Shown here piece after piece: positions 1-20,000 of a stretch of DNA of 20,000 nucleotides. Each line of letters begins with the position of its first letter. Position 1 is the first letter of the stretch. Both the position numbers and the translations under genes were made by a program. Under the pieces are notes generated by a model. It ran no database searches. It was not told the origin of the DNA and saw only the letters and a list, made by a program, of their open reading frames with translations. The DNA lies in the NCBI GenBank assembly GCA_013265495.1, contig MU057651.1, positions 1,995,129-2,015,128 of the forward strand. Reading direction: 5' to 3'. This stretch comes from Vicugna vicugna. Lineage: Eukaryota.

Positions 1-121
1 TGGATATACTGACCAGAGTCATTCTGGATGGTCACCAGATTACTGCAGTGGGTGTCAAATTGGAAATCAACAGTGTCCCTTCACTGAGAAAGGCTTACGT
101 CCCCACCACAAAGTGAGCTGA
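1..121 (+). CDS. Probable 3' end of the coding part of a terminal exon of an unidentified + strand gene
   Basis: Two frames are open from the window edge. Frame 2 reads GYTDQSHSGWSPDYCSGCQIGNQQCPFTEKGLRPHHKVS* (TGA 119-121). Frame 3 reads DILTRVILDGHQITAVGVKLEINSVPSLRKAYVPTTK* (TGA 114-116). Both are followed by a repeat-free, 3'UTR-like AT-rich tract with poly(A) signals. The true frame and gene identity are not determined. Confidence 0.4.
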   Translation, partial: GYTDQSHSGWSPDYCSGCQIGNQQCPFTEKGLRPHHKVS

Positions 122-1300
122 GCTGACGCGCACACAGCTCCGTAGTAAATCTGTAAATTGCACAGCGTCTAAAGCCTTGAATTGCAGATCATTCTTATCA
201 TCCTCTGACCATGTAGAAACTGATTATGAAAACCTATGGTGAAGGCTGAGGCAGGACACTTACCATGGGGAACAATTCTGTCAAGTGTATTTGAACTGCG
301 GAATGGACCATCAGTATTCCTCTAAGAAGATGCACAGTACGACTTGCTTATTTTTTATTTTTTTGGTATCTTTGGCATTTTTAATCATCTGAATATATCC
401 ATGCCAAGAAGGAATGAGATATGTTTGTCAAAGGCAGATACAATCGAAGAGCAAAATTGGAAACCCTTTAAGAATAGGATTTCAATAGATTGTTGTGTTA
501 TGACATGCTCTGTAATTAAACAATTTTGGATCAGCTGAATGATGATCTGGACGCTGCGTCTATGTGGGAATTTATCAGTAGACACTTTAGGAATTTGATT
601 AAATGTTTTGAAAGTTACTTCTCACCAAAGAAAGTCTACTGACAGGAAATTGGTGTTTTGTAGTTAATTTACAAATTAAAAATTACAGTCAAATGATCTT
701 TCTGTGATACGGCATCCATCTCTGTCGCTGCAAGATTATTTAAATTTAACTGTGATTTACAGGATAATTTGCTAACGTGTTAAAGATAAATTTTGGAAAT
801 ATCTTTGTTTCCTTTTCAATCAACCCATGCCTCATGTGGCTAACAGTTAAAAATCCTGGGTTTGCAGAAATTGCTTCAAATTTTATTTCTTTTCCTATTT
901 CTAGCAATCTACTTCTGAAAGACTAATTTCTGTACCAAAATTTTTGTTAAAATATAAGCAATGTAGGGGTTTATTACCTAGCCCAACTTAGACTAGATAG
1001 ATCAATAAACAGGAGGGGTAAGTAAATTGGTAACATTAAAAACTTTAACTCTTGATTTTTTAGTGTTTCTTAAAACTTCAAGTGTATGCATTAATATGGA
1101 AAATCAAGTTTTTAATTGTAATTTTTGTTTTGTTTCTATTGAACAATATTAGAAAATGTATGAACGTATATATACACTTACTTATACTGATTATTTATAA
1201 GCATATTCTCAAGGAACAAGGTGTGTACTTCTTATAATTCTTTTATATCTTATACTTGGTTCAATTATATTGAATAAAAAGTAAATTTATTTTTGTTGAA
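122..1300 (+). other. Putative 3' UTR of the + strand gene
   Basis: About 1.2 kb with no recognisable interspersed repeat, increasingly AT-rich, with multiple TGTA and ATTTA motifs. AATAAA occurs at 1004-1009 and 1273-1278. Repeats begin just after (~1400). Confidence 0.5.
1273..1278 (+). terminator. Polyadenylation signal AATAAA (alternative at 1004-1009)
   Basis: Canonical hexamer preceded by TGTA elements (e.g. ~1158, ~1224) and followed by the U-rich tract TTTATTTTTGTTG. Confidence 0.5.
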
Positions 1301-1399
1301 TGAAATCATAAAACTATTGGGAGAGTTTTAAATTCATGTCTTTAAGTTGTAAAAGATGTTTCCCGTATCATTCCAGTCATTCATTTTTGTTTTATTTCA

Positions 1400-1605
1400 T
1401 TTTTTTTAAACTGAGCCAGCATAATTGACATATAATATTCTATTAGTTTCAGATTTGCAACATAATGATTTAACATTTATATATATTGTGAAATAAACAC
1501 CACAGTCCGTCTAGGTACCTTCCATCACCACACAGAGTTAACGGTATTTTTTATCACAATGAGAACTTTTAAGATTTACCCTCTTAGCCACTTTGCAATA
1601 TGTCA
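1400..1605 (-). mobile_element. L1 3' end (L1MA9-like)
   Basis: Poly-T then ATAATTGACATATAATATTCTATTAGTTTCAG...CATAATGATTT...GAGAACTTTTAAGATTTACCCTCTTAGC, which matches the remembered antisense L1MA9 3' end. Confidence 0.8.
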
Positions 1606-3747
1606 TTTGCAACAACATGAATAGCAATTCATTTTTATTGTATGTCACAAATTATCAGTCCAGTATACATTGGCAATCAAAACAGACAGCCAAAATTGAA
1701 AACAACAAAAAAAAAGACAAAAAAAGAAAAAAGGTGAAGAAGAGATAACCTGCCCTTTGACCCTGATAGCTTGAGAATGCAAGGAAGGCCCTTCTTGCCC
1801 GGCGTGGTGTTGATGTTAGCGCTGACAGCAGGTTTCACTACTACGTTCTCAGCAGAAAGGGTGAAGGGTGATGGCGCTGAACAGACCCCACAATATGGCT
1901 CATGAGCTGGTGGAACTCGCTTGCTCTGGGCAGTCACGATGGGCTAGCTCTGACCTCCCCCTGGGCCCTGGACGGTCATCACTGAGAGGTCCAGGTGGGA
2001 GGAAGAGAATGGTGGGCAAAAAGGGAAGCCATCCTCCAGGACACCCGGGCGCTGGCCAAGGTCCTGAGCCCAGCGCAGCCATGGGCTCTCCATGGGGCAG
2101 GCGGAGCATTCGCACGGTCCCGTCCCGGCGCCTGTCAGTGTGGATGGTTCCAGTTTCTGTCTGCTGAATCGGTGCTCTGGGTTTATCAAGGATAGTCTGG
2201 AAAAGAAGAGGGGTGGACGTGGGGACAAAATGAGTGACAGAGTCCCGCCAAGTGGGACGAAAGAATTTACTATCAGAAACTGAGAGTCAGGATAAATCTC
2301 TGCCTTTTTTTTTTTTCAGTCTTAGCTTCTTTGGAAATGAACGAACTAAAGGAGTTTCCTGCACTCTCATTCTGTGACATTCGCTTCATCGTCCCAACAG
2401 TAACCCTGGAATCAGTTATGCAGGAAAATTACACGACAAATATCTTACAGATAAGAAACCATCCTTTAAATATGTTTTTCCCCCTTTTGCTCTGTTCACT
2501 GGTTTATTCAGCCATTTGACAATGTTGCATTATTGTTTTAATATTAATGCCAGTGATAAACAGACTCTGCCACCCCTTATAAATAAACTTAATTTAGTTA
2601 AAAACCATCGGATGCACATATCCCTAAGTTTATTGTTTGCGTGTGGTGAAGAATCTACACTTCATTTTAATTTCTGCCTTCGAAAATGCTTTTAAGCTCG
2701 ATCATGATTCATTTTACTGTGCCTTTTATGCACTTCCAGGAGCTGCATCTTTCATCTACTGTTTGAAGCGGTCACTGACAGGGGAACCCATTCATAGCAA
2801 CATTCTGCAGAAGGAAAATGTGTGGAGGTTTGTTGTTCCAGCTCCTGAGATCATGTTTTATCTCATCTGCTAAAAAGGCTGATTTCCCTCGGAAAGAGCA
2901 AATGTGTTTGCTGCGACGTGGGTTTCCCGTTGCCAGGTGAGATAAATGTGAGGCCAGAGCTTCCTTATATTTTAATATCTAAATAGAGAGAGATTTGAAG
3001 CGTTATAAAGCGGCGTAAGAGGGAAGGAGTGTCATTTAGTCATCAAATGTGTGTGGGAAACCTAGCGTGTTTCAGAAACCGATCTTGGAGTTGGGGCTAC
3101 GCCTGGGAACAGAGAAAACTTCCTGCCCCAAAGAGCTGAGGGGAAGCTTCCATCACGTACGCTGGTAATTGTCAGCTCACTGCCAAGCAGCGTGAGCCTT
3201 CCACCCCGCCTCGAACTGCAGCACGCTCTGGAGACGTGACCACGAGACACGGAGCATCAAATACGAATCCTGTAAGTTCCAAACTCTCCAGGCAGGAGCC
3301 GCTCTTTCTCGACGATCGATCGTGACAGTCCGGAACGGAGAGAACCATCTCATCAAATCAAATGCTTGCGGTGCAGCTGATGGGTGCTGGGGTGATTTTG
3401 GGAAAAGCCTGCCAGGGAAACGGCCCTGTTTGTAAAGTGCGTGGCTGGGGTAGCAGCTGCTCACTTACACCAGCCGTTCTAGAAGGTGCAAGGACTCAGG
3501 ACATCTTTCGTAAATTGGCAGCTTCAGATCTTCTGAGAAAGCGTGTGATGTGTTTCACTCTGCAGAGCTGACTGACTTCTAGGCTGGAGAGAGACTGTGC
3601 CCGACCTGGGAGAGGATTTTGACAGAACTCATCTTTCTGACTTAACATTTGTTAAGCTCCCCTTTGGGTCTTTTACTTAAGAATACAGATGTTTGCTGGT
3701 TTTCATGGCTCACTGACTACACAGAACCCAAGAGGATGTTTGAGTTC

Positions 3748-4129
3748 TTAATTAAGCCGTGCTTCGTGGAGTCTGTGCATTTAAACCTTTCCTTATTGGA
3801 AGAAGTCTTTCAATGTCCTCGCTCTTACGTAGGTGAAATATTTGAGATTAGTTTAAACTTTCGATGGACTACATCGACAAAAATGCGTGCACTTTGGCAC
3901 TGAAAAGTGGATCCCAAACCTAGATTCTTTTACCAGAGTCCACGTTTCTTCCAAAGACTGGAAGATTAAGGCAGTGGAAACCGAGGTTTTTGTCTTAATA
4001 CTCTTTATCATCTACTTGTGAGCTCAAGACATTTATCATCCTGAGAAAATTACCTTCTGAAATGTCATCCCATCAGAGACATTTATAATGACGAATGGTG
4101 GCTATCAATTCTCGTAATGGAAGGTTTGA
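3748..4129 (-). pseudogene. Degraded exon (candidate last exon) of the - strand pseudogene
   Basis: Acceptor TTTTACTGTGGCTATTTTCAG| at 4130-4132. Phase-0 translation is SNLPLRELIATIRHYKCL*WDDISEGNFLRMINVLSSQVDDKEY*DKNLGFHCLNLPVFGRNVDSGKRI*... The 3' limit is uncertain, and a possible donor AAG|GTAATT after 4054 would make it a short internal exon. Confidence 0.4.
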
Positions 4130-4939
4130 CTGAAAATAGCCACAGTAAAACCAATGTTTTACTCTTATAATGATTTTACAATTAGCTGAAACAAAATCTT
4201 TGACACTGAGACGAGGCAACGTGTGACTGAATCAATAGAAACATTAATGCCTGTTCTAACCATCACACCGAGGGAAGACGTACATAAAACCGAATAGAAA
4301 AGGAAAGGGTAAAATGTGTCATTTTGGGGGCCTGTGTTTTGGAGTTGGAAGGGTTGGAAAGTAAGTAATCATGCCAAGTGAAGAATTGTTTAATGCATTG
4401 CTTATGTGAGGGTGCAGGTAATATTCCAAGGGCAAGAGGTGGTCAAAGCTCTACCCTCCTTGGAGATTCCTGGACCGTCAGAGAACCTTCCAGTGCTCTG
4501 TGCTCTGGTCCCACCAGAGAAGAACTGATTGATGGACTTTTGTTGTCTGTACGTGACTTCCCCCACTTAACATCTGGATAAAAACAAGACCGTGTTAGCG
4601 GTCCTTATCCGAAGAGCAGATCTATTTCAAACAAGCATTAACCTATGATTTTATATTTTAATGAACATGTTTCTGTTCCCTTCATCTGATGAGACCTCAC
4701 CCCTTTTTAAATCGCCACCTTCTCTGGACGCAAAGACGCAGTGCAGGAGACGAGCCGAGCCGGTGGCGTTCAGTCTTCAGCAAGGACGGTCCCTTTGCTT
4801 CGATGCACTTTGATGTCGTCTTTCCCTGTCCCCTCTCCATCCTCTGAACCCAGAGGAATAGAATCAAAATTCCATCGGGCCACTGTGCTGAGGATGAGAA
4901 GTGTGCTGGGTGGTTACACGTGGTCCGGCCAGTGGGTGT

Positions 4940-5400
4940 TCAAGCCTCCTGCACGCCCGGTGGCGTGTTATAGGGTTGACCTTTCTCTGCCCTCTGCTCA
5001 GTGTGTGGAGGCGGGCCTCTGCGGGCTGCAGCCACCAAGCGTCCTTGAACAGCGGGCTCCAGCTGAGGAGAAGCAGGACACTGGGATGGGAGGAAAGAGA
5101 CTGTGGGGCGTCCCCTCCCTTCCCAGGGGAAGCCCAACAGGGTCTCCTTGCCTCCACAAACACCGCCCTCCTGTGAGCAGCTCTGGTGGTAAAGCCAGAG
5201 CTCCTGCCTTATCCTGGTCACACCCACTTCCCCTTGTCCCCGAGGAACAGAAAGCTTTCTTCTGTAGCTCGTCTCCGGGTGCCTGTGGGTTTCCCACGAC
5301 CCCATCCCTTCCTGGAAAAATGGTCCCTTCATTTCAGCCCCTTCTAGTTACTCCCACCAGTGCCTTTTCTCTTTCCTGTAGTGAGGAGTTTAATTGCCAA
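4940..5400 (+). mobile_element. LTR33-like solo LTR (ERVL)
   Basis: Segments CCTCTGCGGGCTGCA, AGCAGGACACTGGGATGGGAGGAAAGAGA, CTTCCCCTTGTCCC and GGTCCCTTCATTTCAGCCCCTTCTAGTTAC follow the order of the remembered LTR33 consensus. Confidence 0.6.
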
Positions 5401-5495
5401 TTCCTTATTATTCATTCACTGCTATAACATATTTATCAACAAAGGACGGTATGTGAGGCAATGTACTGCCAATAATGATAATGAGGGGTAAAATT

Positions 5496-5740
5496 AACAG
5501 TAGCTAACATTCATCGAGCACGTCCCGTGTGCCAGATCCTCCTCGAAGCACATTCTATGTCTACCTTAATGAGTTGTGCAAATAACCCTATGTGGTAGGC
5601 ATCTCAGGGCACTCTGTGGTCTGTTGCATTAAAAAAGTCCCAAACCTCAGAGACTTGATCACGACAAAGATTATTTCTTGGGGGCATCATTATTCCCTTT
5701 GAAGAAAAATTATTATTAACACAGAGATGCAGGTCCCTTG
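5496..5740 (-). mobile_element. MIR SINE, interrupted at 5604-5682
   Basis: TAGCTAACATTCATCGAGCAC...GTGCCAG...AATAACCCTATGTGGTAGGCATC//ATTATTCCCTTT...ACAGAGATG matches the antisense MIR core. Confidence 0.65.
5604..5682 (-). mobile_element. Short MLT1 (MaLR) LTR fragment nested in MIR
   Basis: CCCAAACCTCAGAGACTTGATCACGACAAAGATTATTTCTTG resembles the MLT1J/K-type motif CCCCAAAATCTCAGTGGCTTAAAACAACAAAGGTTTATTTCTTG. The fragment is flanked by a GGCATC direct repeat. Confidence 0.45.
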
Positions 5741-5743
5741 GGA

Positions 5744-5774
5744 GTGCGCGCGCGCGCACACACACACACACACA
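5744..5774. repeat. (GC)n(AC)n microsatellite
   Basis: GTG, then a (CG)n run, then a (CA)n run, giving an uninterrupted alternating purine-pyrimidine tract. Confidence 0.95.
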
Positions 5775-5795
5775 GTTATACCACAGTCACGATCT

Positions 5796-6191
5796 GCAGT
5801 CTTAGTCAAATTTTGAGTGTCTTAGCCATAGGACAAAGTATAACACCGCGTTGCAGGCTGGGTGGCTTGTAAACAAGGAAAACTTGTTTCTCACAGTCCT
5901 GGAGGTGGGGGAGTGCAAGATCACGTCACTGGCAGATTCGGTGTCTGCAGGGAACCCGGTTCTTCGTTGCCAGGTGGCCATCTTCCCTCTACGTCTTCAC
6001 ATGACCGAAGGAGCAAGGGGGCTGTCTGGGGTCTCTCTGATGAGGACACAGATCCCATCCTGTGGGTTCTACCCTCATGACCTCATCTCCCCGCGAAGGC
6101 CCCACCTCCTAATACCATCCCATCGGGGCTTAGGGTGTCAACGTACGGATTCTGGAAGACGGAGGGGGTCACAGGCTTGTAGTCCATAAAC
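5796..6191 (-). mobile_element. MLT1A/MLT1A0-like solo LTR (ERVL-MaLR)
   Basis: GTCTTAGTC...GGTGGCTTGTAAACAAG...TTTCTCACAGTCCTGGAGG...CAAGATCA...GGCAGATTCGGTGTCTG...ACCCTCATGACCTCATC...GGCCCCACCTCCTAATACCATC...AGTCCATA, a near full-length antisense MLT1A. Confidence 0.85.
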
Positions 6192-6499
6192 CTGAGCTGA
6201 GGTTCAAGACATAAAAGTACAGCGCGGCCAGTATAAAGAAATTATAGATATTAAAAAATAATAAGGGTTTTCTTTTATATGCACTGAGAGAATTGTGATT
6301 TACGCCATGTGCCTCCAGGACTGCACCGCACTGGGCCCGTGTTGAATGTGTCTGTTAAAATCTCTGAGATAATCATAGCTGGCCTTCAGGCAATTCTTCA
6401 CAATGAAAGTGTAGCTAGACCTCCAGGTAGCTTAGACATTAATTTAATGGTATTCTTTCCTCGCCACATAAGGTTGATTTAAGGTCAGAAATAAAATAT

Positions 6500-6810
6500 T
6501 GCTTAAGGCAAATATCTAAAGTCAATCTTCTGAATGGTCCACTCTCAGTGGTCATAAGACACAGGAGACTGAACAGCGAACAAATCTGGAGATGGACACT
6601 CTCAATACAAAAAAAAAAATGAAAATTTTTAAAAAAGAACCATGGTTTAGGTAGACTGAAATAAAGCCATGACATAATTTTAAATTTTTATGTGAAAAAC
6701 CATAAAAAAATCATCTGAAATGTCTAGAGCTAGTGAATATGATTATCACTAGATTTGAAATAAAAAAGATAAATAAAATGACTATGATTCCGAGAAAAAG
6801 CAATCTGATC
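6500..6810 (+). mobile_element. Ancient L1 ORF2 (RT region) remnant
   Basis: ATGACATAATT...TATGTGAAAAACCATAAAAAAATCATCTGAAATGTCTAGAGCTAGTGAAT resembles the L1 ORF2 region encoding DDMIxYxENPK. Confidence 0.5.
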
Positions 6811-7479
6811 TCATAATAAATATTTCCGGAAGCCTTTTGAGGAGCGAAAGGAATTTTACATTCATATTATGAAATAGCCGCTGATTTACCAATTTTAGAC
6901 TTCGTAAAGAGAGATTTTTGAAAGCAGTCAATACGATTAGAAAGAATTTCGATGTATGACGTCAAATTTCCACGGTTTGGAGAACTGGTGGGGAGGCGGG
7001 AGCTGGCAAAGGCATTTTAACCAAGGAATAGTGAGCTGCCTTTTATTATGAGGGTGCAGGCAGCAGCAGCTCTGTCACCTGTGTGATAAAGAATAGTTTT
7101 GCACACGCTTTTATTTTCAGGAGTACGGGAGAGGTGAACGGTCACTATTATGCAGAGACACTCAGTAAGGCTTCATTGCTATTACCGCCTCCCCTGTGGA
7201 GAGCCCACCTTTGTCCTCCTTGTCACCGTCACCGTATCTTCATCACTATCCCCGGAGCAAAACATTTCTGGGGTAAAATAAATAACGCATCTGTGGGATC
7301 TTACTTTGCATGAGGAACTATTGCTCAGAGGGTTGCAAAAAAAAACCCTCCTCTCCACAAATAACACACACACAAAAGATGACCTCGCTTTGTTGAGTTC
7401 AAAATTGTGAGTGACCAGTGGACACTCTGGAAACGCGGGTGGGTCCCATCCACCCAGCCTCACTTGCCCACTCAGCTCT

Positions 7480-7765
7480 GCCTCTGGTTCCTACTCATTT
7501 CCAGGATGCAGATCAGACAGCACCTCGAGGTAACCCTGTCTCGCTCCCCCGTCCATCCTCATCGCTGACTCTAGTCCCCTCTCATCCAGCGCCCAACAAT
7601 GCAGATGTAAAATGCCTCTACACGTGCATTTGTTTCCTCCACTGTCCTTGCACATATTTTAAAAGTTGGAGGGGAGTGTCTTTTTGCCATTCTATCCCCG
7701 ACACTTAATTCAGAACTAAGTACACTGAACAGTCATCGTGCAAATTAAACAAGTGCTTAGCTGAA
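7480..7765 (+). mobile_element. L2 3' end remnant
   Basis: GGAGGGGAGTGTCTTTTTGCCATTCTATCCCCGACACTTA...CAAATTAAACAAGTGCTTAGCTGAA resembles the L2 3' terminus, but is highly diverged. Confidence 0.4.
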
Positions 7766-7927
7766 CACAAAGTGAAATTATTCTATTACATTCCACTTGA
7801 AGACTTAATTTTATGGCACCACACTTGTATTTATTTTTCACCTGAAAAACTTTATAACCTTAAAAGTATAAAAAAGATCTTGTCCCCAACGCCACTCCCG
7901 CATTTTGACTGACTTGTCGTGTCTTAC

Positions 7928-8401
7928 TGATGACACGTCTGGCAGGTGTCACGTTTCTCCCCGCCTCTCCATTTTCCCTGCATTGACTTGGCTAAAGATC
8001 CTATAAGCAGTTTTCTTATTTTCCTAGAAGCCTTTCAATGAGTCTTCTTTAAGCCTGGATTTTCCCTTCTCAGTTCTGCTGCCAGAGTAATTTTTCAAAG
8101 TAATGAAGTAATTCTGTCGTTCCCAGAATCAAAATCATTGAATGGAACTTCATTGACTTTGGAGTAAAGTCCAAAGAGCCGCGATAACTTTCTTACTGAC
8201 ACATCAGCAGTTCTTTTCAACACCCTGATACCCGGGTCACTGGGCAGCCACAAGGCGAAGGGTTCCACGTGCGTTTTCTCATCGGTTACCACAGCCGCCG
8301 TGTGGAATAGGTACAACTGTCATCCCAGAATTGCCTCTCTGCACTAAATTTTCATTGAAGAAGTCCAATTCGTTTTCTGTTTGATTTGTTTCCTTGAATG
8401 G
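7928..8401 (-). pseudogene. Degraded 474-nt exon of the - strand pseudogene
   Basis: Acceptor TTTTCAAATTCCATAG|, donor TCA|GTAAGA, length 474 = 158 codons. It starts PFKETNQTENELDFFNEN, the middle is open in the +1 frame (LYLFHTAAVVTDEKTHVEPFALWLPSDPGIRVLKRTADVSVRKLSRLFGLYSKVNEVPFNDFD), and it returns to phase 0 (FWERQNYFITLKNYSG...). Confidence 0.6.
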
Positions 8402-8492
8402 CTATGGAATTTGAAAACACTTTCTTAAAAAAAAGGTAATCAATTTCTCTTACTAGTCTCTCAACTTTTTTGACCTAAAGATTCAAGAATTC

Positions 8493-8787
8493 TACAAAAC
8501 AAAAGAAACTTGCAGACATTGTCAACCATCTTATGGTTCCCAAGGGAAAAGAGCTGGGAAGAGATACATTTGGGAGTTTGAGATTTGCAAATGTTAGCCA
8601 CTATATTTAAAAGTAGATTGAAAAACAAATTTCTTCTGTGCAGCACAGGGAACTATATTCAATATCTTGTAATAACCTTTAATGAAAAAGAATATGAAAA
8701 CAAATATATGTATGCATGACTGGGACATGGTGCTGTGAACCAGAAATTGACACACTGTAACTGACTGCATTTCAATTAAAAAAAATA
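8493..8787 (+). mobile_element. Young 5'-truncated L1 3' end (artiodactyl/camelid type) with TSD
   Basis: TTTGGGAGTTTGAGATTTGCAAATGTTAGCCACTATA...AGCACAGGGAACTATATTCAATATCTTGTAATAACC...CCAGAAATTGACACA...TTCAATTAAAAAAAATA. TSD AAGAATTC at 8485-8492 and 8788-8795. Confidence 0.9.
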
Positions 8788-8871
8788 AAGAATTCCTCTC
8801 CAATATTTCCCTCCTACTATGTCTCTAAGCATTACATTTCTTTGCTCTCTCTTGCTTCCAGAAATTAAATA

Positions 8872-8882
8872 TAGATAGAAAA

Positions 8883-8924
<42 letters not shown>

Positions 8925-8926
8925 GA

Positions 8927-8975
<49 letters not shown>

Positions 8976-9046
8976 CACTTAGATAAATAGATGGATGGAT
9001 GGATGGATGGATGGATGGATGTGTGCATGGATGAGTGGATGGATGA

Positions 9047-9113
<67 letters not shown>

Positions 9114-9278
9114 CATAATAGATAGATACATAATAGATAGATTGGAATGGATGGAAAGATAGATAGATAGATAGTGAGATAGATAGATGATGGATGATTG
9201 ATAGATTGGATGGATGGATGGATAGATAGATAGATAGACAGACAGATAACAAGAGAGATAGACAGATGATAGATAGAC
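8872..9278. repeat. Compound (GATA)n/(GGAT)n tetranucleotide array
   Basis: About 400 bp of GATA blocks alternating with GGAT blocks, decaying to GACA at the 3' end. Confidence 0.98.
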
Positions 9279-9488
9279 AGACTCTATGTTTGTTTTATCT
9301 TCTACTTTTATGCTTTTGTAATTGTCTTTAATGTTCCCTGACAAGCTCGAGAGACATCAGTTTTCATGAACTGGCTTATACCCTTCAGTACCCAATATGG
9401 CCACCACCACCACCATGATATGAATCCATCTGGTGGCCATGTTGGTTTGTATGTGTTCCTAAGAACATGTTCCTAAGTTGTTTCTTAC

Positions 9489-9579
9489 CTTTTGACATTC
9501 CCTTCTGATATCACTGCTCTGTCTTTTTTATTTATTTAAATGATTGCTGCATCCTCTTTAACCTTTCTGGTGATACAAA
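9489..9579 (-). pseudogene. Small degraded exon of the - strand pseudogene
   Basis: Strong donor AAG|GTAAGA at 9489/9488. CAG acceptors lie before 9579 or 9566, and the latter gives 78 nt in phase 0 (KG*RGCSNHLNK*KRQSSDIRRECQK). All frames contain stops. Confidence 0.4.
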
Positions 9580-9724
9580 CTGGTAGTAAATTTTAATTGT
9601 TAAACCCATTTGTTCTTTAGCGACCCCATTTCAAAGAGGGATCTTGGTACCAGTGCCTGCATTTGGCATTTGTTGGAGGACAGCCGCGTCCTTCCACCTG
9701 CCCATGCGGAGGCGTTCTCTAGGA

Positions 9725-9948
9725 CAGGGCAGTGCAGTCTGGACGCTGTTGCTGTCTGGAGCCGGGTAATTGTTCACCGTGGAAGCTGCCCTGTGCATTG
9801 CGCAGTGCTCAGCAGCACACACGGCCTTACTCATGAGGCGCCAGTAGTGACGGCTCAGTTGTGACAACCACACATGTCTGCAGGTGTTACTGCCTGTCCT
9901 CTGGTGGGGTGTGGAGGCGAGCAAAATGACCCCCGCTAAGGGGTGACT
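9725..9948 (-). mobile_element. MER20 (hAT-Charlie non-autonomous DNA transposon)
   Basis: GCCGGGTAATT...GCTGCCCTGTGCATTG...AGCAGCA...GCCAGTAG...CAGTTGTGACAACCA...ATGTCT...GCAAAATGACCCC follows the antisense MER20 consensus. Confidence 0.85.
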
Positions 9949-10131
9949 CTCCCCAGCCCTTGACCAAGACCTTATTAAGTTACATTTTGCCCAGTTTGGA
10001 AGAATAGCCTGGATTCAGGGTTGCACCGCCTTGAAGGCAGAAATGGTCTTTCTTGGTCACACAGCCCAGGCTCCTAGCCAGGAGGCCTGCCATTTGGGTG
10101 CCCTTTGGCCAATTTTCAGACAAACCCTCCC

Positions 10132-10851
10132 CTAAAGCTTTTGCTGATGAGAAGATAATCCTTCATCCTCCTTACAGCATCAGTTATCATCAGCCGTGCA
10201 GTTAACCCCTGGGCCCCCAGCAATCGCCTTCCTGTGGGTTGCTGTATTTTCCCATATGATTGCTCTATGTTCTTCTGTCCTTAATGAAGTACTTTCATTC
10301 GTGGCCAATATTATAGTTGAGACACTGCGTGTTAGAGAGAACTGCGGTTCTCACTTCACGTCTGTTGGTCCTCTTTGAAGGCAGAGGGTCAAAGCTTCGA
10401 TTGACTTTAGTGTTGTCACTTCTGGAAGCTCAGAGGGGGCCGTGATGGGTGGCGGTGGAGTCGTGTGCTTGGCAGAACCAAATATTGTACCAATTTTTTT
10501 TTCTGTTCTCCATTCTAGTGGTAGCTCATGTTTTCGTTTAAGATAATTTGTCTAAAATTTATGATTCTAAAACTGAGTCTATCTAAAGATCTAGTTACCT
10601 AATGAGTAATGTTTTCTGAAATCTAACGCTTCAAAATGTTTGTGTGTCCTTTGCGGAAAATACTTGTTTTATAGTTTGTGGATCTGGCTTTAACATTTTC
10701 TCTACTTTTGAAACTTTTAAGGAATTTTTATTCAGTTGATTGAAGAATCTTTTCATAGTATCACGTGCTTGCTTTATATTTATCTGGAGATGATGTTTTA
10801 AGATACCATTTTGTGTTTCCGATGTGGTATTCTTTTTTCAAAATAGAAATA
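10132..10851 (-). pseudogene. Large degraded exon of the - strand pseudogene (3' limit uncertain)
   Basis: Acceptor CTTCACTGTTTTTATTTTTAG| before 10851. There are 68 open codons at 10837-10634 (KKNTTSETQNGILKHHLQINIKQARDTMKRFFNQLNKNSLKVSKVEKMLKPDPQTIKQVFSAKDTQTF) in very AT-rich DNA. After a shift, ~139 codons from 10551 contain only two stops (TNYLKRKHELPLEWRTEKKIGTIFGSAKHTTPPPPITAPSELPEVTTLKSIEALTLCLQRGPTDVK*EPQFSL...). Confidence 0.55.
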
Positions 10852-11663
10852 CTAAAAATAAAAACAGTGAAGGTTAATAAAATTATAGTCCAGCCATCTC
10901 ACTTATTAATTTTTATTTACAGTGTATTAGAGCCTCACTAAATAAAATCCATGGATAATTGAACTAATAAGTATATGTATATATTGGAAATAGCTACAGA
11001 AGAAAAAAATAGCAAAAAAAAAAGAGACTTGTACAATCACAGATGATGTGTGTCATAAATCCAGTTTAAAATTATTGGATGAGTTATTTTCTGTTTTTTA
11101 AATATCATTAGAAGCCAAATATAAGGAAAATATTATATTATAACCAACAAGAGAGTAATGAAACGATTTCTTGTCATCAAAATGATGGGTTAATATGCAG
11201 GGATTAAATCGTCTCTTTAATGGCTCCTAATATCATGGCCATTGCATCTAGACCTCTTCTCAGCATCTATATGCCATGGTTGACAACACGGAAATGCCTA
11301 CAGCATGAGAACATTGTCAGGACTTGCCCTCAGAGGACACAAGTGTGATCTGGCTGCACGCTGAGCTGTAGCATCATCTGCCAATGTCAAGGGAGTCATA
11401 ATAATGCAGGATAGTGAAATAGAGCCTTGAAAAAATGTCAGGAAAGACAGGTGAACATTTGAATTAGAAGAGCCAATATGACTTAACAGTAAAATTTCAA
11501 AGAACAGTTCAAACAATTGTGAAGCAAAGTAAGGAAGAAGGGGTTTGGCTCCAAGAAAGGGAAGGGTTTCAGGATTTACAGGGAAGCCACAGTGATTCAG
11601 ACCACGTGGAACTGTTGCAGGAATGACCAGATGGACAACGGAACAAAACGGGGAGCCACAGAG

Positions 11664-11698
11664 ACACACATGTGCGCGCACACACACACACGCGCACG
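11664..11698. repeat. Mixed (CA)/(CG)/(TG) alternating purine-pyrimidine microsatellite
   Basis: ACACACATGTGCGCGCACAC...ACACGCGCACG, 35 bp of perfect R/Y alternation. Confidence 0.9.
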
Positions 11699-11759
11699 GC
11701 ATGGCTGGCTTCCCTCCCACCTGACAGCCCTCCCCACGTCTTCTGGAATTTTTGATCTC

Positions 11760-12095
11760 TAGACAGTAGATTCTCCAGTCCTCAGGTAATTGGACGTATT
11801 TTGTTCTTTATCTACATTTTTCTCTCCAGGCAGTGTCCTCACTTCAATTTGCTTTTCTCTGCCAATGCCTTTCTCCCTTGTAAATCCAATCCTGCTCTTC
11901 TCCCTGACCTCTGGACTGCCATGTCCAGCTGCCTCCTCTGGTCCCCACTTGTGTGTCTAATAAAGGTGTAAAACATATCCAAAAAAACTCTTGATCTCCA
12001 CTTCCAAACTCCTTTCTCACTGCCGTATTTGTCCTCCACAAGAAATGGCCACATTACTCCCCCACGTACGCAAGACAAAATCTCCAGAAATCTTT
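11760..12095 (+). mobile_element. L2 (L2a-like) fragment
   Basis: TCTCCCTGACCTCTGGACTGCCATGTCCAGCTGCCT...CCACTTGTGTGTCTAATA...AACATATCCAAAAAAACTCTTGATCT...AAATGGC matches the remembered L2 consensus. Confidence 0.75.
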
Positions 12096-12236
12096 TCTCA
12101 GGGTTCATTTAATGGAATTGTGAGCACTAGTTAAACTGAATGAATTAGATCCATAAGCATCAACGCCTACAGTGTGCATACAAACAACTTGAGTTTTAAA
12201 AACTCGGAAGGATTTTTATAATATGCTACCACGTAC

Positions 12237-12578
12237 ATCATTTTAAAAACACACTTTTCATAACAGATAGTGTTTTAAGAGTCTAAATATGCAGTTTAAA
12301 ATTCTTGACTTTGTGGTTTCTTCCACAGAGAGAAATTTGGGGTTGGGTTTGAATGACGCTTAAATTGATCTACGGTTTTGCTTCTTGAGGCTTATCTAAA
12401 TCAGATGCGGCAAAACGTGACTGCGTATTCAGCTGGCACGTTTGCAATGTCCTTTAGTTTGCCTTTCAGTAATGTGCTGCATGATGTAAACAAAGAATGA
12501 AGCGCCAAGAAAAGGCATCGTCCTGGAGCCCCTTCCTCCGGGTCCTGCGAGGTCGTCCAAGGAAAGAACTCTGCAGAA
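12237..12578 (-). pseudogene. Possible degraded exon of the - strand pseudogene
   Basis: Acceptor AAACCTTTCAG|, donor GAT|GTACGT, 342 nt (114 codons). Phase 0 reads FCRVLSLDDLAGPGGRGSRTMPFLGASFFVYIMQHITERQTKGHCKRAS*. Splice signals are weak. Confidence 0.25.
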
Positions 12579-13228
12579 CTGAAAGGTTTGCCGAGGGCAG
12601 ACAAACCCAGGATGGGACTTCTTGTTTATTTAATGGCCTGCACTGTTATAAATATTTCATTGAACAACACTCAGCGAAGAAGTGTTCTGAATGCATAATA
12701 AAAATCAGACAAGAAATACTACGCAGGGAAATACTGCAGTGATAAGGAGCGTCGCTGGTATACCAGTAATATATCAAAGCTGCGATGGTGGAGGGAGAAG
12801 GTCGTCTGCTCTTGGCTCTTCATCCTCAAGTCTGCCTACAGGTAAGTCATTTTACAGCTTTAACCCTCAGAGTTTGCAACTTGTGGACACTTTTTATTAT
12901 TTATAAGCAGGAGAGCTGGATGACAGCAGATGGTCAAAGATGCTGAGATTCTTGCATTTGGGGCAAACTTTTTAAAAAAGGCAATCCCCTCCACGCTATT
13001 TCATTCACTAGATGACATTAGGGTGGTGTTGATTTCCAGCAGCCTGGGACTCTGGCAGGCGAGAACGGACGGGTTGCCGCATCTGCGTATTAACCGCGCC
13101 TTGTTATGAGAACCATTGGGGAGGAAGCCGTCTACCCAGCGTTGCTTCCAAGACATTTGCATTCATTCTTGCAGCACTGCCCTTGTAACATGTCAAAAGT
13201 CAGAAATATATCTGGCTGAGGTAACACT

Positions 13229-13324
13229 GTTTTTCTGGGGTGGGTGGGTGGGTGGGTAATTAGGTTTATTTAATTTCTTTTTTAAATGAAGGTGGTGGGG
13301 GTTGAACCCAGGACCTCCCGCATA
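13229..13324 (-). mobile_element. 5'-truncated camelid vic-1-type SINE
   Basis: GGTAATTAGGTTTATTTAATTTC...GGGGTTGAACCCAGGACCTC is the antisense B-box region plus the tail typical of camelid tRNA-derived SINEs. Confidence 0.85.
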
Positions 13325-13589
13325 GACCATAACTGCAAAGGCTGCTTGTCAGGGATCCACTGTACACATCCTGATTAGTCTGTTAATCTAAGCAATTACC
13401 ATTAGGCGACGTGAAAGTAGCCTCCATAGAGCGAAGGTACAGTCTCATTCTCTGCACGTGGCTGCAGGCTGGTGGCTCCAGTGGGGGACCGTGAGGTCTG
13501 GTTTCTTCCAGCCTGAGCTGCCGTCATCTTGGGAACGAGGCTGCCCAAGGATGGAGAAGACGAAGGATCATGGGGAGTGAGTGGGGCGG

Positions 13590-13970
13590 CAGCCCTGTTC
13601 TACGTGGGGTTTCACGTGGTCTCCGTCCACCTCTGGCTTCCAGCTGGGTTCAGCCAACGGGACGTACTGGTAAGGTATCAGAGGGTGGCTGGAGAGGGAG
13701 GTCGGGGTGCACCGTCATTCATCCCCACCCAGCCGCCTCCAAGCAGAGGGGTGCTTCGTAAGTGGTAGCTCCAGTCCCATTGCTGCAGTTTACACCCGGG
13801 TTCAATGTTTCTGTTCCCTTCCCTCCTCGGGGCTCCCTCTTCAACTATCCCTTGGATGCTTCCCCATCACCTGCTGGTGTCTCACCCTCTCCTGCATCTC
13901 TGTAGGTGCCACCTTCATTAGATTGTCTTCAATTAAAGTTTGAGAATCATCAACACCCTGCTGGATGCAG
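13590..13970 (+). mobile_element. LTR33-like solo LTR (ERVL)
   Basis: CCTCTGGCTTCCAGCTGGGTTCAGCCAACGGG...GGAGAGGGAGGTCGGGGT...CCTTCATTAGATTGTCTTCAATTA matches remembered LTR33 motifs. Confidence 0.65.
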
Positions 13971-14095
13971 TGGGCTACCCCACCTCCACCAACATCTCAT
14001 CATCCGGATTCCAGATGGTCCAGCAAAGCAAAGAAGCTACACTTGCCATCCCTCCGTGCCCTCAGGAAGAGAAAACTGAACTGTGACCCTCTCAC

Positions 14096-14599
14096 CTGGC
14101 TTTGCAGCAACAACCTGCTTTTGAAGAGTGTCCTCCAGGGGACCCCGGGGTCATAGTAGAGTCACATAACTTAACTCTTTAATCAAGGTGCTAGCAGCAA
14201 AACGCCTTTGAGGAAACGCTGAGCCAAAAGAAGCTCAAGGGGTTTCTAATGTTTTAATCAAAGACTAAGAGAAATGAATTTGCTGATGCGCAAAAGTCGG
14301 TCTCTGACGTTGCAGCGTGGTGTGCAAAACTTGCACTTTGGAAACCCATGATTTTCCTGAAGTAGCTGGCGTGACTGAAGCTCTTCCGTGAGAAGTCAGT
14401 TTTGGAAATGCCATTGGAGTTCCTTCTCCATAAGCAGCTGGGGAGGGGGCTCTACCAGAACTTTGTCTGGAGGAAGCTTTTCTGGTTTATCAGATCGAAG
14501 CTCTGTTTCTCTGGTATCTGCTTCGCTTTTTCCAATATGCTCGGCAAATGCTGCCTCTGCTTCAAGAATTAAGTCATCGTTTCTAAGCCGCCAAGACCT
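14096..14599 (-). pseudogene. Degraded 504-nt exon of the - strand pseudogene
   Basis: Acceptor CATCCTAATTTTCTTAG|, donor CAG|GTGAGA, 504 nt = 168 codons, phase 0-0. The first 67 codons are open (RSWRLRNDDLILEAEAAFAEHIGKSEADTRETELRSDKPEKLPPDKVLVEPPPQLLMEKELQWHFQN), then TGA at 14398-14396. There are six stops in total. Confidence 0.6.
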
Positions 14600-14741
14600 C
14601 TAAGAAAATTAGGATGAACACAATATTGTTAAGAGAAGGTCTTCGCCACGTACCCAACATCGTTTAAGACCTTCTTGATTAAAGTCTTTCCAAAGGGTCC
14701 AGAAGGTCAAGAATCAGAATCAGAATCATACAGAGCGTCAA

Positions 14742-14975
14742 AATACCAGCTGCATTTTAAAAATACTTATTCCGATCGTGTGCTTCAGTTTTATTTTACA
14801 CTTAGCGTCTCATTCAACACCTCAAACAACCGCGTAAGGTCGGGAGTAGTGCTGGCTGCATCTCACAGAGTCACTCATCGAGGCTTCCTGATATTGAAGA
14901 AAGCCGTCTAGTGATATGAGTGAGACACGGCAGAGTAGGAATTCAACGCGGGCAAAACTGCCTCCCAGGACGCTA
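14742..14975 (-). mobile_element. MIR SINE
   Basis: TCTCATTCAACACCTCAAACAACCGCGTAAGGT...CATCTCACAGA...GGCAGAGTAGGAATTCAA resembles antisense MIR, but is highly diverged. Confidence 0.55.
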
Positions 14976-15079
14976 CTGTGGGGGACGAATGGGGTGATGC
15001 CGTCAGAAAGACATAAATTTTTTTTCCTCTTTTTAATCACTCACGGGAGACAATAAAAGGATGGGGGAAATGAGCTAAT

Positions 15080-15800
15080 GGAACAGACAAAGCAAACGTC
15101 ACAGCAGCTTCAAATAATATTCTCAGAGAAACATAGATGCAGAAACAGTTATACGGAAGAACCAATGAGAGAGACAGACTTTGACAAGCGGGAATATTGG
15201 AAAAAAGCGCTCAGAGTATGGGTTGGGTAGCAAAAATGATTTAGCTGAAATGAAATTAATGAGCTAGCAGACAGGATCAACTGTGCCACCAAAAATCGTC
15301 ACTAGTGGATAAAGGACAGAGAGACAGCAGCGGAGAGCTGGGGAGGGCAAAAATGGAAGCATCTTGTGCATTTAAAAGCAATTTCAAGGCAGGGGAGGGG
15401 ATAGCTCAAAGTGGCAGAGCATGTGCTTAGCACGTGCAAGGTCCCAGGTTCAACCCCCAGCCCCTCCCTTAAAATAAATAAAGAAATCTAGTCACCAGCC
15501 TTTCAAAAATTTTTTATAAATAAATAAATAAAAACGCAATGATAAAATAAATGGTTTCAAAAAGGCAATTACAGAATGCTCAAACTAGAGAGGAACTCAA
15601 ATCGAAAGGGCATATTAAGTTCCAACAGAAGAGACAAAGAAATCCAGCTCCATGTAATTAAACTTTAAGATGTAAAAAATACGAAATTTCAGACAGTAAT
15701 GATATCGCAAAAAGCGTAAGAAATAAATGCTCAGAACTTAGACAGGACACTGAGTCAGGGGACTCAGTAAGCAGAGAAATTTTCAGAGAGAAAGTGGCAC
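15080..15800 (+). mobile_element. Ancient L1 ORF1/HAL1-like remnant, split by a SINE
   Basis: A-rich sequence with CAAATCGAAAGGGCATATTAAGTTCCA...AAGAAATCCA, which resembles the ORF1 'QIERAHRVP' region. Confidence 0.45.
15392..15560 (+). mobile_element. Full-length camelid vic-1-type tRNA-derived SINE
   Basis: GGGGAGGGGATAGCTCAAAGTGGCAGAGCATGTGCTTAGCA... with A box ~15402-15414, B box GGTTCAACCCC 15447-15457 and an (AAAT)n tail. Degenerate TSD AAAAGCAATTTCA (15374-15386) / AAAGGCAATTACA (15561-15573). Confidence 0.9.
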
Positions 15801-16000
15801 ATGAGCTTTTTTTTTTAAGTTTAATCTTCGAGGTAAATGAATCATTGCTCAATCTTCTGAACTCAAGACGCTATAAAAAACCAGGGATTCCACGAAGAGG
15901 CTGCAGGCACAGCTCAGGGCGAGGGGGCCTTCAAAGTCAAGGTCGGGGGTGGGCGCTTCAGCCAGAAGGTGGTTCTGAGCTGTTTCACAGGGGAGGATAC

Positions 16001-16145
16001 CTTGTAAGATTTATCCTGAGAAGTGCATTCAAACGTATTTTTGAAACAATTTTTCAGACCCACACACTCATTTCACTACGAAAGCGACAAAGACATTGTC
16101 ATCTCGGAAGATACGGTCTAACATAACCTGGGTTATTTTCAGCCT
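16001..16145 (-). pseudogene. Degraded 145-nt exon of the - strand pseudogene
   Basis: Acceptor TTTGCGTCTTGTCTTAATGCAG|, donor AAG|GTATCC. Translation RLKITQVMLDRIFRDDNVFVAFVVK*VCGSEKLFQKYV*... Confidence 0.4.
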
Positions 16146-17087
16146 CTGCATTAAGACAAGACGCAAATGAAATAAAAATCCAAATCAAGTGTTTTTCATC
16201 CAGACATTGTTTGAGTGGGAGGTTTTAAAAAATATGTCTAGTTTTAATGCACCGTTTAATTCATGAGCGTCTTTCCAGTTTAGATCAAATGACAAAACGT
16301 ATTATCTGAGACCCAGATAAATAGTTCCAGGTAACTGTACAACTTAGCTTTGGGAGATTTTTCAGATCGTTAAATGGTTATCTCGAGGCCAACAGATGGC
16401 TAGAGAGTCCAAAAACTAGTTTAGCACGATAAAATTTGCAGAATAAATTCACAATGCTCTACATTGATGTAGCTTGCTTGAATCTATGAAACGCTTTTCC
16501 TTGCCTAATTTCAACAAGAAACTCATGTGCACAGAGAATGTCCCCTGCCATTTTAGGAAAAAAAGGATGCTGTGTTCCTAAAGCCGTCAGCCACTGTATG
16601 TACCCTGACAGTGTGCCCCGAGGAGACCCAGGATGGAGAAAAACAGGGTGCTGGCCCTACGTAGCTAAGATGCGTGTCAAAGAATGATTTTAATAAGCCC
16701 AGATACTTGCATCTTCCCATGCAGAGAAAAACCCTAAAATCATTAACTTGAGATGTCTGGGGTATTTTTGCAATTAGCAGTGATCTTTTGATGTTTAGCT
16801 ACGTTCCCCGTCCCCCAGCAAACACTCCTCTGTGTCCTGTCACCTCCCTCGCTTCTTCGGAGCTGGTCCTCGGAGCGGTCAGAGAGGCTGTCCCAGGCTG
16901 GTCTCAGTAACTCCCCCAAATGCAGCCTCAACTTTTTATTTTTCCAGTCCACACTCCTGTCAAATTTTAAAATCTGGGACCCTGTATTTATTTGCATTTT
17001 ACGTATTAGGGAAAGCGACTGGAGAGGCAATGACTATATTTAAGGTGAGACAGGCGTTCAGTTGAGGAAGGACCCAAGCTCACTCAC

Positions 17088-17218
17088 CCATCAGTTTCAC
17101 GACAGACCACCGCTACTTTCTAAATCTTACACAAAACATTGAAAGCGACACCTTCATCCTCCCGTTAAACGTGGGCAAATCGAAGCTCAGACAGTTACAG
17201 TGATTTCCCTTGGGACCC
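17088..17218 (-). pseudogene. Degraded 131-nt exon of the - strand pseudogene
   Basis: Strong acceptor AATTCTGTCCCTTCACAG| and strong donor TGG|GTGAGT. Stops occur in all three frames. Confidence 0.5.
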
Positions 17219-18798
17219 CTGTGAAGGGACAGAATTGGGATCCATTTCTGTTTTATCAGAATTTAGAGGCAATTTCCTTTCCGGTACATAACCCCACTTT
17301 TTTATTTTCAAATCAGGCTGACATTAAACATCCGTGTCTTGCTTTGAATGGGCTGTTCGGAATATCTTACTATTCAGCAAGGTTTTATTTTGATGTCTAG
17401 TTGGGAGGCCGTCAAGATTGAGGTTGGAAAAAAAAAAAGGGGGAACAAATGTTGAGAATCAGGGCAGCCAGCCCCTAGTTTAGAAGCATGCGTTGCGCCT
17501 TGTCCCACCCGGCAGGGCCAGCTGAGCTCAGGGAGGGAGTGGTTTGAACGTGTCTGTATGTCCTTCACTCAGCTGCTTATAAGATAGTGATTTATCTGGA
17601 GGGAACTTACAAAGCACCCAGTGCGGGGGCACTGCTGTCTCTCGCTTCCCCAGCATCACCCCAAGCCCCACTGACTCTCCTGCCACCGGGTCGTAATGGC
17701 TTAGAAACCCAAGCAAGTTAGAAAGGGTCCCGTCGCCCCAGTTTCCTCCCGGACAATCCATGGAGACAGCAAAGAACTGGAAGTTTCTTTCTGGTTGAAT
17801 TCTTGGTGACTTTTAAATTTTTTTTAAGTACTAATCATGCTTCAAGGCTGAACTCAAAAGTCTCCCTCGTTTTGATGTCCTCTGAGATTCCCCCGGGGCA
17901 GAAGTAATTGATCCCTCTGTGTTTTTATAGTTCTTTGTTTATCTTTATAACAAAAGCTTCAAAGGGAATCCCAAGCCTTTGAGTCAAAGCAGCTGACGGG
18001 GAAGAGCAGATGGATGGATGTGAGAGGATCCTGAGGAAGGAAAACGTGTCTGAAAGGGAGCAGTTGTCAGGGGGCTGGGAGTGGGGAGGCGAGGACCTGT
18101 GAGGTCCAAGTTCTTTGTCTTTTTCACATGGAGCAATTGCAGTAAAAGGGGAATAATGATAAGAGAAGACAGGATGGAATATGATTCGCTTTGTACCAGG
18201 TAAGCAGGTGGTGTCCCCAGGATGGCTCCCTGCTGGTGGACAATGCAGGGGGTTGAACCAAAGGGGATGCAGGGGATGAAGACAGCTGGTGTAGCTCCGG
18301 AGAGATGGGAGTGAAGGCGTGGACCCGATACCGCCAGAGACAATGGACACAGAGGGCTGTGAGCTCAGCACGGTAGGGAGGCTCCAGTCGAGGTCAGAGG
18401 TAAAAACACTCGTGCACCGGGGAGCACCACTGGGTTATACAGGAACCTGAGATGCAAAGACCAGGAACCATGTGTTTTGTGCCCCAGGGGTAGCCACCCA
18501 CATCTCCATCCAAAGATACAGAACTGGAGGGCGCTGGCCTTCCAGGGCACTGGATCTAAGCTATGGAAAGGTGGCTGGGATCCAGCCTTGAAAAGGGAGT
18601 CGACAGCCTTTAAAACATGTGTAAATACTGAGTATGGTCTTTAGAGAAAAAATTCGAATATCAAGAGGCTTTAGCTGTGTGATCTGAAAATAATGTCACG
18701 TGACTCCTCAGAGTCTTTTCTCCCTTTTCTCCCAGAGAGAAGTCAGAAGACCTACCAGAGAGCATTTCCTACTCAAGACATGAGACATATCGAAAACA

Positions 18799-18885
18799 AA
18801 AACCACAAGTTTGTATTCTATGTCTGTGAGTCTATTTCTGTTCTGTATTTATGCTTTGTTTGCTTGTTTATTTTGTTTGTCTACT
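18799..18885 (-). mobile_element. Short internal fragment of a young L1 3' UTR
   Basis: AACCACAAGTTTGTATTCTATGTCTGTGAGTCTATTTCTGTTCTGTATTTATGCTTTG is antisense artiodactyl/camelid L1 3' UTR sequence. It has no poly(A) tail and is flanked by GAAAACA repeats. Confidence 0.75.
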
Positions 18886-18899
18886 GAAAACACCCCAGT

Positions 18900-18974
18900 G
18901 AGAAGAAGAAGAGAATCAAGAAGGGGAAGGCCAGGAAGGAAAAAAGGAAGGAAGGAAGGAAGGGAAAAAGGAAG
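18900..18974. repeat. Purine-rich (GAA/GGAA)n low-complexity tract
   Basis: AGAAGAAGAAGAG...GGAAGGAAGGAAGGAAGGG. Confidence 0.8.
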
Positions 18975-19313
18975 ACATTTCACACACATTGGCAAGTCAA
19001 TGATTCTCAGATGAAAAGGGACCAGAGTGTTGAAAACTGAACATCTGGATTCTCAAGTAATTTTATTAAAATCCTTTATAAGCTGATGGCCAAGTAGAGG
19101 CTGAATCTCAAAATAAGAAAAGGATTTGAAATAGAAACACACGGTCAAAGATTTAGGTCCAAAGGTCATAGGAGTCGAGAAACGAAGGGCTACCTCACTG
19201 GCACAAAGTTTTGGGAGTCTCTGTGGTCCAAAAGCCAAAATTAGGGATTGTGCTGTAATGCTGGACAGATGTGTGTGTCTACATGTAACTCATACACAGT
19301 AAAATGTCCCCAC

Positions 19314-19408
19314 GTCTGTGCTGCTCGCATCAAACATCTCTTTAATCAGAGACAAAGGTTAGACCTTCTGTATCATTTGTTCCATCTCCCACACTTAATA
19401 ATCTGCAT
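19314..19408 (-). pseudogene. Possible degraded exon of the - strand pseudogene
   Basis: Acceptor CCCTTTTCAAG| or ...ATGCAG|, weak donor GAC|GTGGGG. Translation ADY*VWEMEQMIQKV*PLSLIKEMFDASSTD is protein-like if both TAA codons were CAA. Confidence 0.25.
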
Positions 19409-19740
19409 CTTGAAAAGGGTACATTTTACAGAAATATATATCCCGCTGGTGCAAACTAAAACATGTGCGTTTGTTAATATAGATTATGTTAGCGTACCGT
19501 AAAGCCATAGCCCTTTCCTTAAAGTGGAAACGGCTGATAAAATCAGAAAATTAACTCGCATGCTATGCAAAGAGATGAGGAGCAAATTAGAGTCCAGAGA
19601 AAGCAAATCTGTGTTAAAACTGCTTTTAGCACGATCTTACGGTCGGAGACAGGCAATCTGAACGAACAGAGATCCAACGTTCGAATTGTTCGTTCACGTC
19701 AATGCTGGGTCTCACACATTTGTCTTTGCTTGCTGTCCTC

Positions 19741-19959
19741 ATCGGCATTAACTTGCCGGGGCTGCCAGAGAGCGAGCTCACTCCATACGAGGGGACAACC
19801 ACCATCGGAAAAGTAAGGAGGGGGTCCCCACTGGGCACAAGGTCTGCCAGCACCTTAATCTTGGACAACTGAGCTTCTGCAAGTGTGAGAAATAAACGTT
19901 TGTTGTTTAAGCCACAAGCCAGTGGTAACTTGTGGCAGCAGCTTGAACTGACTAAGGTA
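19741..19959 (+). mobile_element. MLT1A-like LTR 3' half (ERVL-MaLR)
   Basis: TCTGCCAGCACCTTAATCTTGGAC...GTGAGAAATAAACGTTTGTTGTTTAAGCCAC...GCAGC...GAACTGACTAAG is the MLT1A-type 3' end. Confidence 0.85.
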
Positions 19960-20000
19960 TTATCCATCTGGAAACATTAAAGGATCCAGGAGAACAATGA

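What the first reader, a model, noticed from the sequence alone, without database searches (positions are those of the whole stretch)
3748..19408. Hidden multi-exon gene relic on the - strand (candidate unitary/unprocessed pseudogene) missed by the ORF track
Seen: a collinear series of unique-sequence blocks, all on the - strand, lying between repeats and mostly bounded by AG/GT signals: 17218-17088, 16145-16001, 14599-14096, 10851-~10132, 9566-9489, 8401-7928 and 4129-, with weaker ones at 19408-19314 and 12578-12237. Four of them (504, 342, 78 and 474 nt) are multiples of 3, and 9489->8401->7928->4129 joins in phase 0. Translations are protein-like but broken by stops and indels. Inference: this is the intron-containing remnant of a large gene inactivated in the camelid lineage or earlier. 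I could not recognise the protein family. The 5' part probably lies beyond the window end.
Basis: partly seen in the sequence, partly recalled or inferred. Interest (0 to 1): 0.7.

Follow-up and report, generated by a model that had tools for sequence, protein, structure and literature searches.

The report
Unproven gene relic in camelid DNA
These exon-like pieces of mammalian DNA are really there, but they look like the decoy splice signals found in ordinary non-coding DNA, and nothing found so far ties them to a lost protein gene, though a very old gene remnant is not ruled out.

Summary
The nine blocks exist as described: 9 of 9 start after AG, 7 of 9 end before GT, and two look strongly exon-like. 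They are not above chance. The minus strand holds 125 exon-like AG..GT pairs against 119±24 in local shuffles; the plus strand holds 231. A frameshift-tolerant coding score gives z about 0.5, where simulated relics decayed 10-20% give 4.2-2.0; best-frame stops are 37 against 34±4. No search found a homolog (Pfam, PDB, 1.84 billion representatives, three large-library searches, Atlas), but only some frames reached the large libraries and no vertebrate genome was available. Two weak points favour a relic: splice phases put 8 of 9 blocks in their fewest-stop frame (p about 0.01, noticed after the fact; rare in simulated relics too), and the blocks are A-rich. A fully coding relic lost recently in camelids is unlikely. 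Best reading: decoy exons in unique non-coding DNA (0.55). A relic dead since early placental history, or true for only some blocks, stays possible (0.27). Alignment to other mammal and marsupial genomes would settle it.

The parts
19314..19408 (-). Block A, 95 nt, weak AG..GT pair
   Evidence: acceptor rank 310 of 1293, donor rank 166 of 1004
17088..17218 (-). Block B, 131 nt, strong exon-like pair
   Evidence: acceptor rank 14, donor rank 8; also picked by an unconstrained chain search; stops 3/1/5 by frame
16001..16145 (-). Block C, 145 nt, moderate pair
   Evidence: acceptor rank 38, donor rank 87; a stronger acceptor lies at 16075
14096..14599 (-). Block D, 504 nt, strongest exon-like pair
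   Evidence: acceptor rank 32, donor rank 2; stops 6/5/8; no real homolog in frame 0 or in the 3' part of frame 2; the plus strand scores higher than the minus strand for coding (z 2.56 vs 1.41)
12237..12578 (-). Block E, 342 nt; a better acceptor lies at 12570
   Evidence: acceptor score 2.9 at 12578, 7.1 at 12570; Atlas blank
10132..10851 (-). Block F, about 720 nt, A-rich (38% A), no donor at the stated end
   Evidence: stops 16/12/16 against 14 expected; frame 2 blank
9489..9566 (-). Block G, 78 nt, best donor on the strand, weak acceptor
   Evidence: donor rank 1, acceptor rank 219
7928..8401 (-). Block H, 474 nt; frame 1 has only 4 stops
   Evidence: no homolog; AlphaFold pLDDT 37
3748..4129 (-). 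Block I, open-ended; breaks the phase chain (10 stops in the chain frame)
8871..9281 (.). ATAG microsatellite between blocks G and H
15439..15487 (.). Short interspersed repeat copy, with a second inverted copy at 13268-13316; recalled as a camelid-type SINE
   Evidence: (76% over 49 nt); the family name is recalled and comes from no call

Best explanation
The blocks are pseudoexons (decoy exons): stretches of ordinary unique non-coding DNA between old repeats that happen to lie between consensus-like acceptor and donor sites. They do nothing as a unit. Short splice consensus sequences arise by chance every few hundred bases, so any 20 kb of mammalian DNA can be parsed into a collinear 'gene' on either strand. 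Shown: the signals exist, are no more frequent than in shuffles, and carry no measurable coding signal. Inferred: that they are neutral and not spliced together.
For: Minus-strand exon-like pairs 125 vs 118.8±23.5, and plus strand 231; an unconstrained chain finds 40 'exons' on minus and 41 on plus. Coding z 0.37-0.62 against 5.6, 4.2, 2.7 and 2.0 for simulated 5, 10, 15 and 20% decay; best-frame stops 37 vs null 33.8±4.2. No codon-position base bias in the chain frame (p 0.75), and that frame has the worst amino-acid make-up of the three; the best of the three has p 0.21. No Pfam family reached its cut-off. No PDB hit better than E 0.17. One hit among 1.84 billion representatives, a tandem-repeat artefact. 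Nothing scored among 660, 632 and 291 candidates. Pseudoexons may outnumber real exons tenfold (PMC1935003, PMC3098058; passages read).
Against: With the given boundaries, one phase chain puts 8 of 9 blocks in their fewest-stop or tied frame (p 0.008-0.012). The blocks are A-skewed, +0.126 against -0.045 between them (p 0.002 by random placement), as coding exons often are (recalled), though the blocks were chosen by eye. The two best donors on the strand both close a block. The tests are weak for old fossils: a stretch at 3-900 (+) that I read from recall as a decayed transposase scores z 0.46 and has no relevant Pfam hit. The chain frames of D and F never went to the large protein libraries.
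Confidence: 0.55

Rival explanations
1. A true intron-containing pseudogene (unitary, or a partial duplicate), either dead since early placental history or real for only some blocks (B, D and H are the best candidates), of a fast-evolving large protein with no Pfam family.
For: Phase coherence in 8 of 9 blocks; A-skew; strong pairs at B and D; half-coding relics at 10-20% decay score as low as observed in 5-6 of 20 simulations; large-library searches covered only four block-frame combinations, three of them within length limits.
Against: Coherence of 8 or more occurs in only 1-17% of simulated relics, and in 0-2.7% together with 36 or more stops (150 runs per setting), so it separates little from the 1% null. 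Total chain stops are 41 against 44.8±4.1 (p 0.20 by shuffle, 0.037 by rotation). No homolog was found. Decay deep enough to erase the coding signal should also erode the splice dinucleotides.
Confidence: 0.27
2. Exons of a spliced long non-coding RNA, possibly built on an older gene, whose splice sites are still used while no reading frame is kept.
For: It would explain intact AG/GT ends together with chance-level coding signal; strong donors at 9489, 14096 and 17088.
Against: No strand-wide excess of splice pairs on minus; no Rfam match in 1-17800, which says little for lncRNAs.
Confidence: 0.1
3. Some blocks are very old transposon fragments (A-rich L1-like or DNA-transposon coding sequence) too decayed to recognise, which gives the protein-like look.
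For: Block F is 38% A on the minus strand, as sense-strand L1 is (recalled). The region 914-264 has the third-best minus-strand donor yet reads, from recall, as a hAT-type transposase on the plus strand.
Against: No reverse-transcriptase, endonuclease or transposase family in Pfam on either strand of the five long blocks; no PDB hit over 9301-17291 in three minus-strand frames; no repeat library was available.
Confidence: 0.08

Closest known systems
Pseudoexons / decoy exons (PMC1935003, PMC3098058; passages read)
   Same: Sequences flanked by good acceptor and donor consensus sites; abundant; the counts here match shuffles.
   Different: The quoted definition is intronic and 50-200 nt. Five of these nine blocks are 342-720 nt, and no host gene is known for this window.
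Unitary pseudogenes found by genome alignment (PMC5865188; passages read)
   Same: Collinear exon-like pieces with stops in all frames.
   Different: Those are defined by alignment to an annotated intact gene of a reference species. Here no parent protein or ortholog was found.
Other broken genes noted in this genome (SNTG2, partial ADCY1 duplicate; unchecked AI notes)
   Same: Same genome, multi-exon relic claims.
   Different: Each was recognised by similarity to a known protein; this one has none.

Membership tests
Unitary pseudogene | Homology of several exons, in order, to one intact protein in another species | tested here: inconclusive
   All searches blank, but frames and length bands were only partly covered, and no vertebrate positive control was run
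Unitary pseudogene | Lies at the syntenic place of the intact gene | not testable with these tools
   No genome held for this window; no vertebrate genome collection
Unitary pseudogene | No functional paralogous parent in the same genome | not testable with these tools
Recently inactivated gene (up to about 20% decay, blocks fully coding) | Residual coding signal: stop depletion, amino-acid and codon-position bias | tested here: not met
   z about 0.5 and 37 stops vs 33.8±4.2; 2 of 80 simulations that low; codon-position p 0.75
Multi-exon coding relic | Reading frame continuous across splice phases | tested here: inconclusive
   8 of 9 blocks, p about 0.01, but rare in simulated relics too, and amino-acid make-up favours another frame
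Pseudoexon | Consensus-like splice sites at chance frequency | tested here: met
Pseudoexon | Not used by the spliceosome | not tested
   No read evidence was obtained
Degraded transposable element | Match to a repeat consensus or TE protein | tested here: inconclusive
   No Pfam or PDB TE hit; no repeat library available

The most novel reading that the evidence does not exclude
Several of the blocks (B to H, read in one continuous phase chain) are the remains of a large vertebrate protein gene with no Pfam family or solved relative. It was lost near the root of placental mammals or Cetartiodactyla, is missing from human-centred gene-loss screens, and its splice sites may survive in a non-coding transcript.
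Probability: 0.12. Interest if true: 0.55.

Novelty: not a real feature. Interest (0 to 1): 0.13.

Why it matters
As read here it is a caution: AG..GT blocks with 'protein-like' translations can be threaded through any mammalian window, on either strand. If an alignment did show an intact ortholog elsewhere, it would be a gene loss of an unnamed protein that human-reference screens cannot see, since these start from the human annotation (PMC5865188, passages).

Tried and rejected
Homology. Pfam on minus-strand frames of the blocks and on all plus-strand frames of the five long blocks: best E 0.0078, all below cut-off and unrelated. PDB sequence searches: best E 0.17. Representatives search with block D frame 0: one hit, P0004, a tandem-repeat protein whose score comes from repeated weak matches; rejected. 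Large-library searches blank: H frame 1 against 276-2000 aa, F frame 2 against 1299-4134 aa, D frame 2 3' part against 1254-3992 aa. Atlas: MATH-like at 0.85 for the start of D with low recognition, 1601, and unnamed clusters at 0.79 or less for E; both rejected as weak. Metagenome and viral contig scans: 136, 7, 110 and 48 pattern matches, 0 confirmed. Structure. Single-sequence AlphaFold gave pLDDT 37 and 59; Foldseek found 0 matches at E up to 0.001. Rfam: 0 in 1-17800. Earlier findings: 0 near or alike. Sequencing runs: no RNA holder listed; six of the 12 listed runs hold 0.70-0.76 of the words; no reads were laid, so splicing, expression and polymorphism of the stops stay open. A plus-strand gene was considered because of the excess of pairs there. 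The nine strong pairs listed form no open chain (pairs over one short stretch were left out of that list), and T-runs probably explain the excess (inference). An extra exon at 914-264 was considered and dropped, because the plus strand reads as a transposase from recall. A first frameshift-aware parse with a global background mostly tracked G+C and was dropped. One literature search for camelid unitary pseudogenes gave one paper, on aquaporin-10 (listing only); without a gene name, no search could show whether this locus is in print.

Full report
Setting. The window is mammalian genomic DNA of 23-57% G+C by 500-base window, with one ATAG microsatellite at 8871-9281 and two related short repeat copies. 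Earlier unchecked notes on the same genome call it a New World camelid. I also read MIR, L2, L1, MER20 and LTR fragments between the blocks, but these names are recalled and come from no call. No whole genome is held, so synteny could not be tested.

Observation. All nine blocks are at the stated places. Nine of nine follow AG and seven of nine precede GT; F has no donor at 10132 and I is open-ended. With a simple matrix, donors 9489, 14096 and 17088 rank 1, 2 and 8 of 1004, and four acceptors rank 14-38 of 1293; five acceptors are ordinary (103-310). B (17218-17088) and D (14599-14096) are convincing exon look-alikes.

Is it more than chance? No. The minus strand has 125 acceptor-donor pairs at one threshold against 118.8±23.5 in 30 local shuffles (403 vs 367±39 and 21 vs 23±9 at two others). 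The plus strand has 231 against 117.6±28.4. An unconstrained chain search threads 40 'exons' on minus (182.9 vs 171.3±13.8) and 41 on plus (216.6 vs 174.4±15.1). Four multiples of three among seven or eight blocks has p 0.17-0.26, and blocks of such lengths join in any phase. [quoted passage not shown]

Coding signal. A frameshift-tolerant amino-acid score against each block's own dinucleotide background gives no block with p below 0.1 on minus, and a combined z of 0.14. Length-weighted z is 0.37-0.62. Simulated coding sequence of the same lengths gives 5.6, 4.2, 2.7, 2.0 and 0.8 at 5, 10, 15, 20 and 30% decay (12 runs each); best-frame stops are 37 against a null of 33.8±4.2. With atypical amino-acid make-up, 0, 1, 1, 0 and 10 of 20 runs fall to the observed level at those decays. 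If only half of each block is coding, 1, 5, 6, 6 and 12 of 20 do. So a fully coding, recently dead gene is unlikely. A fully coding gene decayed about 30% fits the score but would keep all 16 AG/GT ends with p about 1e-5 (0.0008 at 20%, 0.034 at 10%). [quoted passage not shown] The simulations rest on recalled frequencies and my own decay model. A stretch at 3-900 (+) that I read from recall as a decayed hAT-type transposase scores only z 0.46, which shows how blind the test is to old fossils.

Evidence for a relic. Carrying the frame across the stated boundaries, one of three chains puts 8 of 9 blocks in their fewest-stop or tied frame: p 0.008 by phase rotation and 0.012 by shuffling. For B-H alone it is 7 of 7, p 0.0014-0.005, but that subset was chosen afterwards, and the F-to-G link depends on an end with no donor. 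Total stops on the chain are 41, p 0.037 or 0.20. I noticed this after several other tests. It weighs little: simulated true relics reach 8 of 9 in only 1-17% of runs, and in 0-2.7% with 36 or more stops, because indels scramble phase. The chain frame has the worst amino-acid score of the three (-102 vs -97 and -70) and no codon-position base bias (p 0.75). The blocks are A-skewed, +0.126 against -0.045 between them (p 0.002), but they were chosen by eye and A-richness may have guided the choice.

Homology. Nothing was found. Pfam gave no family at its cut-off on either strand. PDB gave nothing better than E 0.17. Block D frame 0 against 1.84 billion representatives gave one hit, a tandem-repeat artefact. 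Three word-indexed searches scored 0 of 660, 632 and 291 candidates. Atlas results were at shuffle level; contig scans confirmed nothing; AlphaFold models were unreliable and matched no fold. The limits matter: only four block-frame combinations reached the large libraries, three within length bands; frame 1 of D and F did not; internal frameshifts shorten any true match.

Mechanism and verdict. Shown: chance-level counts and no coding signal. Inferred: no splicing and no function. Rivals: a very old or partly real pseudogene (0.27), a spliced non-coding RNA (0.10), unrecognised ancient transposon pieces (0.08). No read evidence was obtained, so expression is open. It cannot be filed as a unitary pseudogene: no parent, ortholog or synteny is shown, and the residual-coding test for a recent loss was not met. 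Interest is low unless a genome alignment finds an intact ortholog.

Noticed in passing
window 1-920, + strand: Successive frames read, from recall only, like the C-terminal half of a decayed hAT (Charlie-type) transposase. Pfam and PDB gave no relevant hit. The opposite strand carries the third-best minus-strand donor (264), a likely chance site.
   Followed up: partly
window 1-20000, + strand: Excess of exon-like acceptor-donor pairs over local shuffles (231 vs 118±28); no open chain among the nine strong pairs listed. Short stop-free pair at 16948-17044.
   Followed up: partly
window 1-20000: CpG observed/expected is 0.49, high for bulk mammalian DNA (recalled), with no island.
   Followed up: no
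window 12570, - strand: Better acceptor than 12578 (7.1 vs 2.9); using it would join frame 2 of block D to frame 1 of block E instead.
   Followed up: partly
   Followed up: no
window about 16500-16950 and 13500-14000: LTR-like fragments (families recalled, no call) lie between blocks B and C and just 3' of block D.
   Followed up: no
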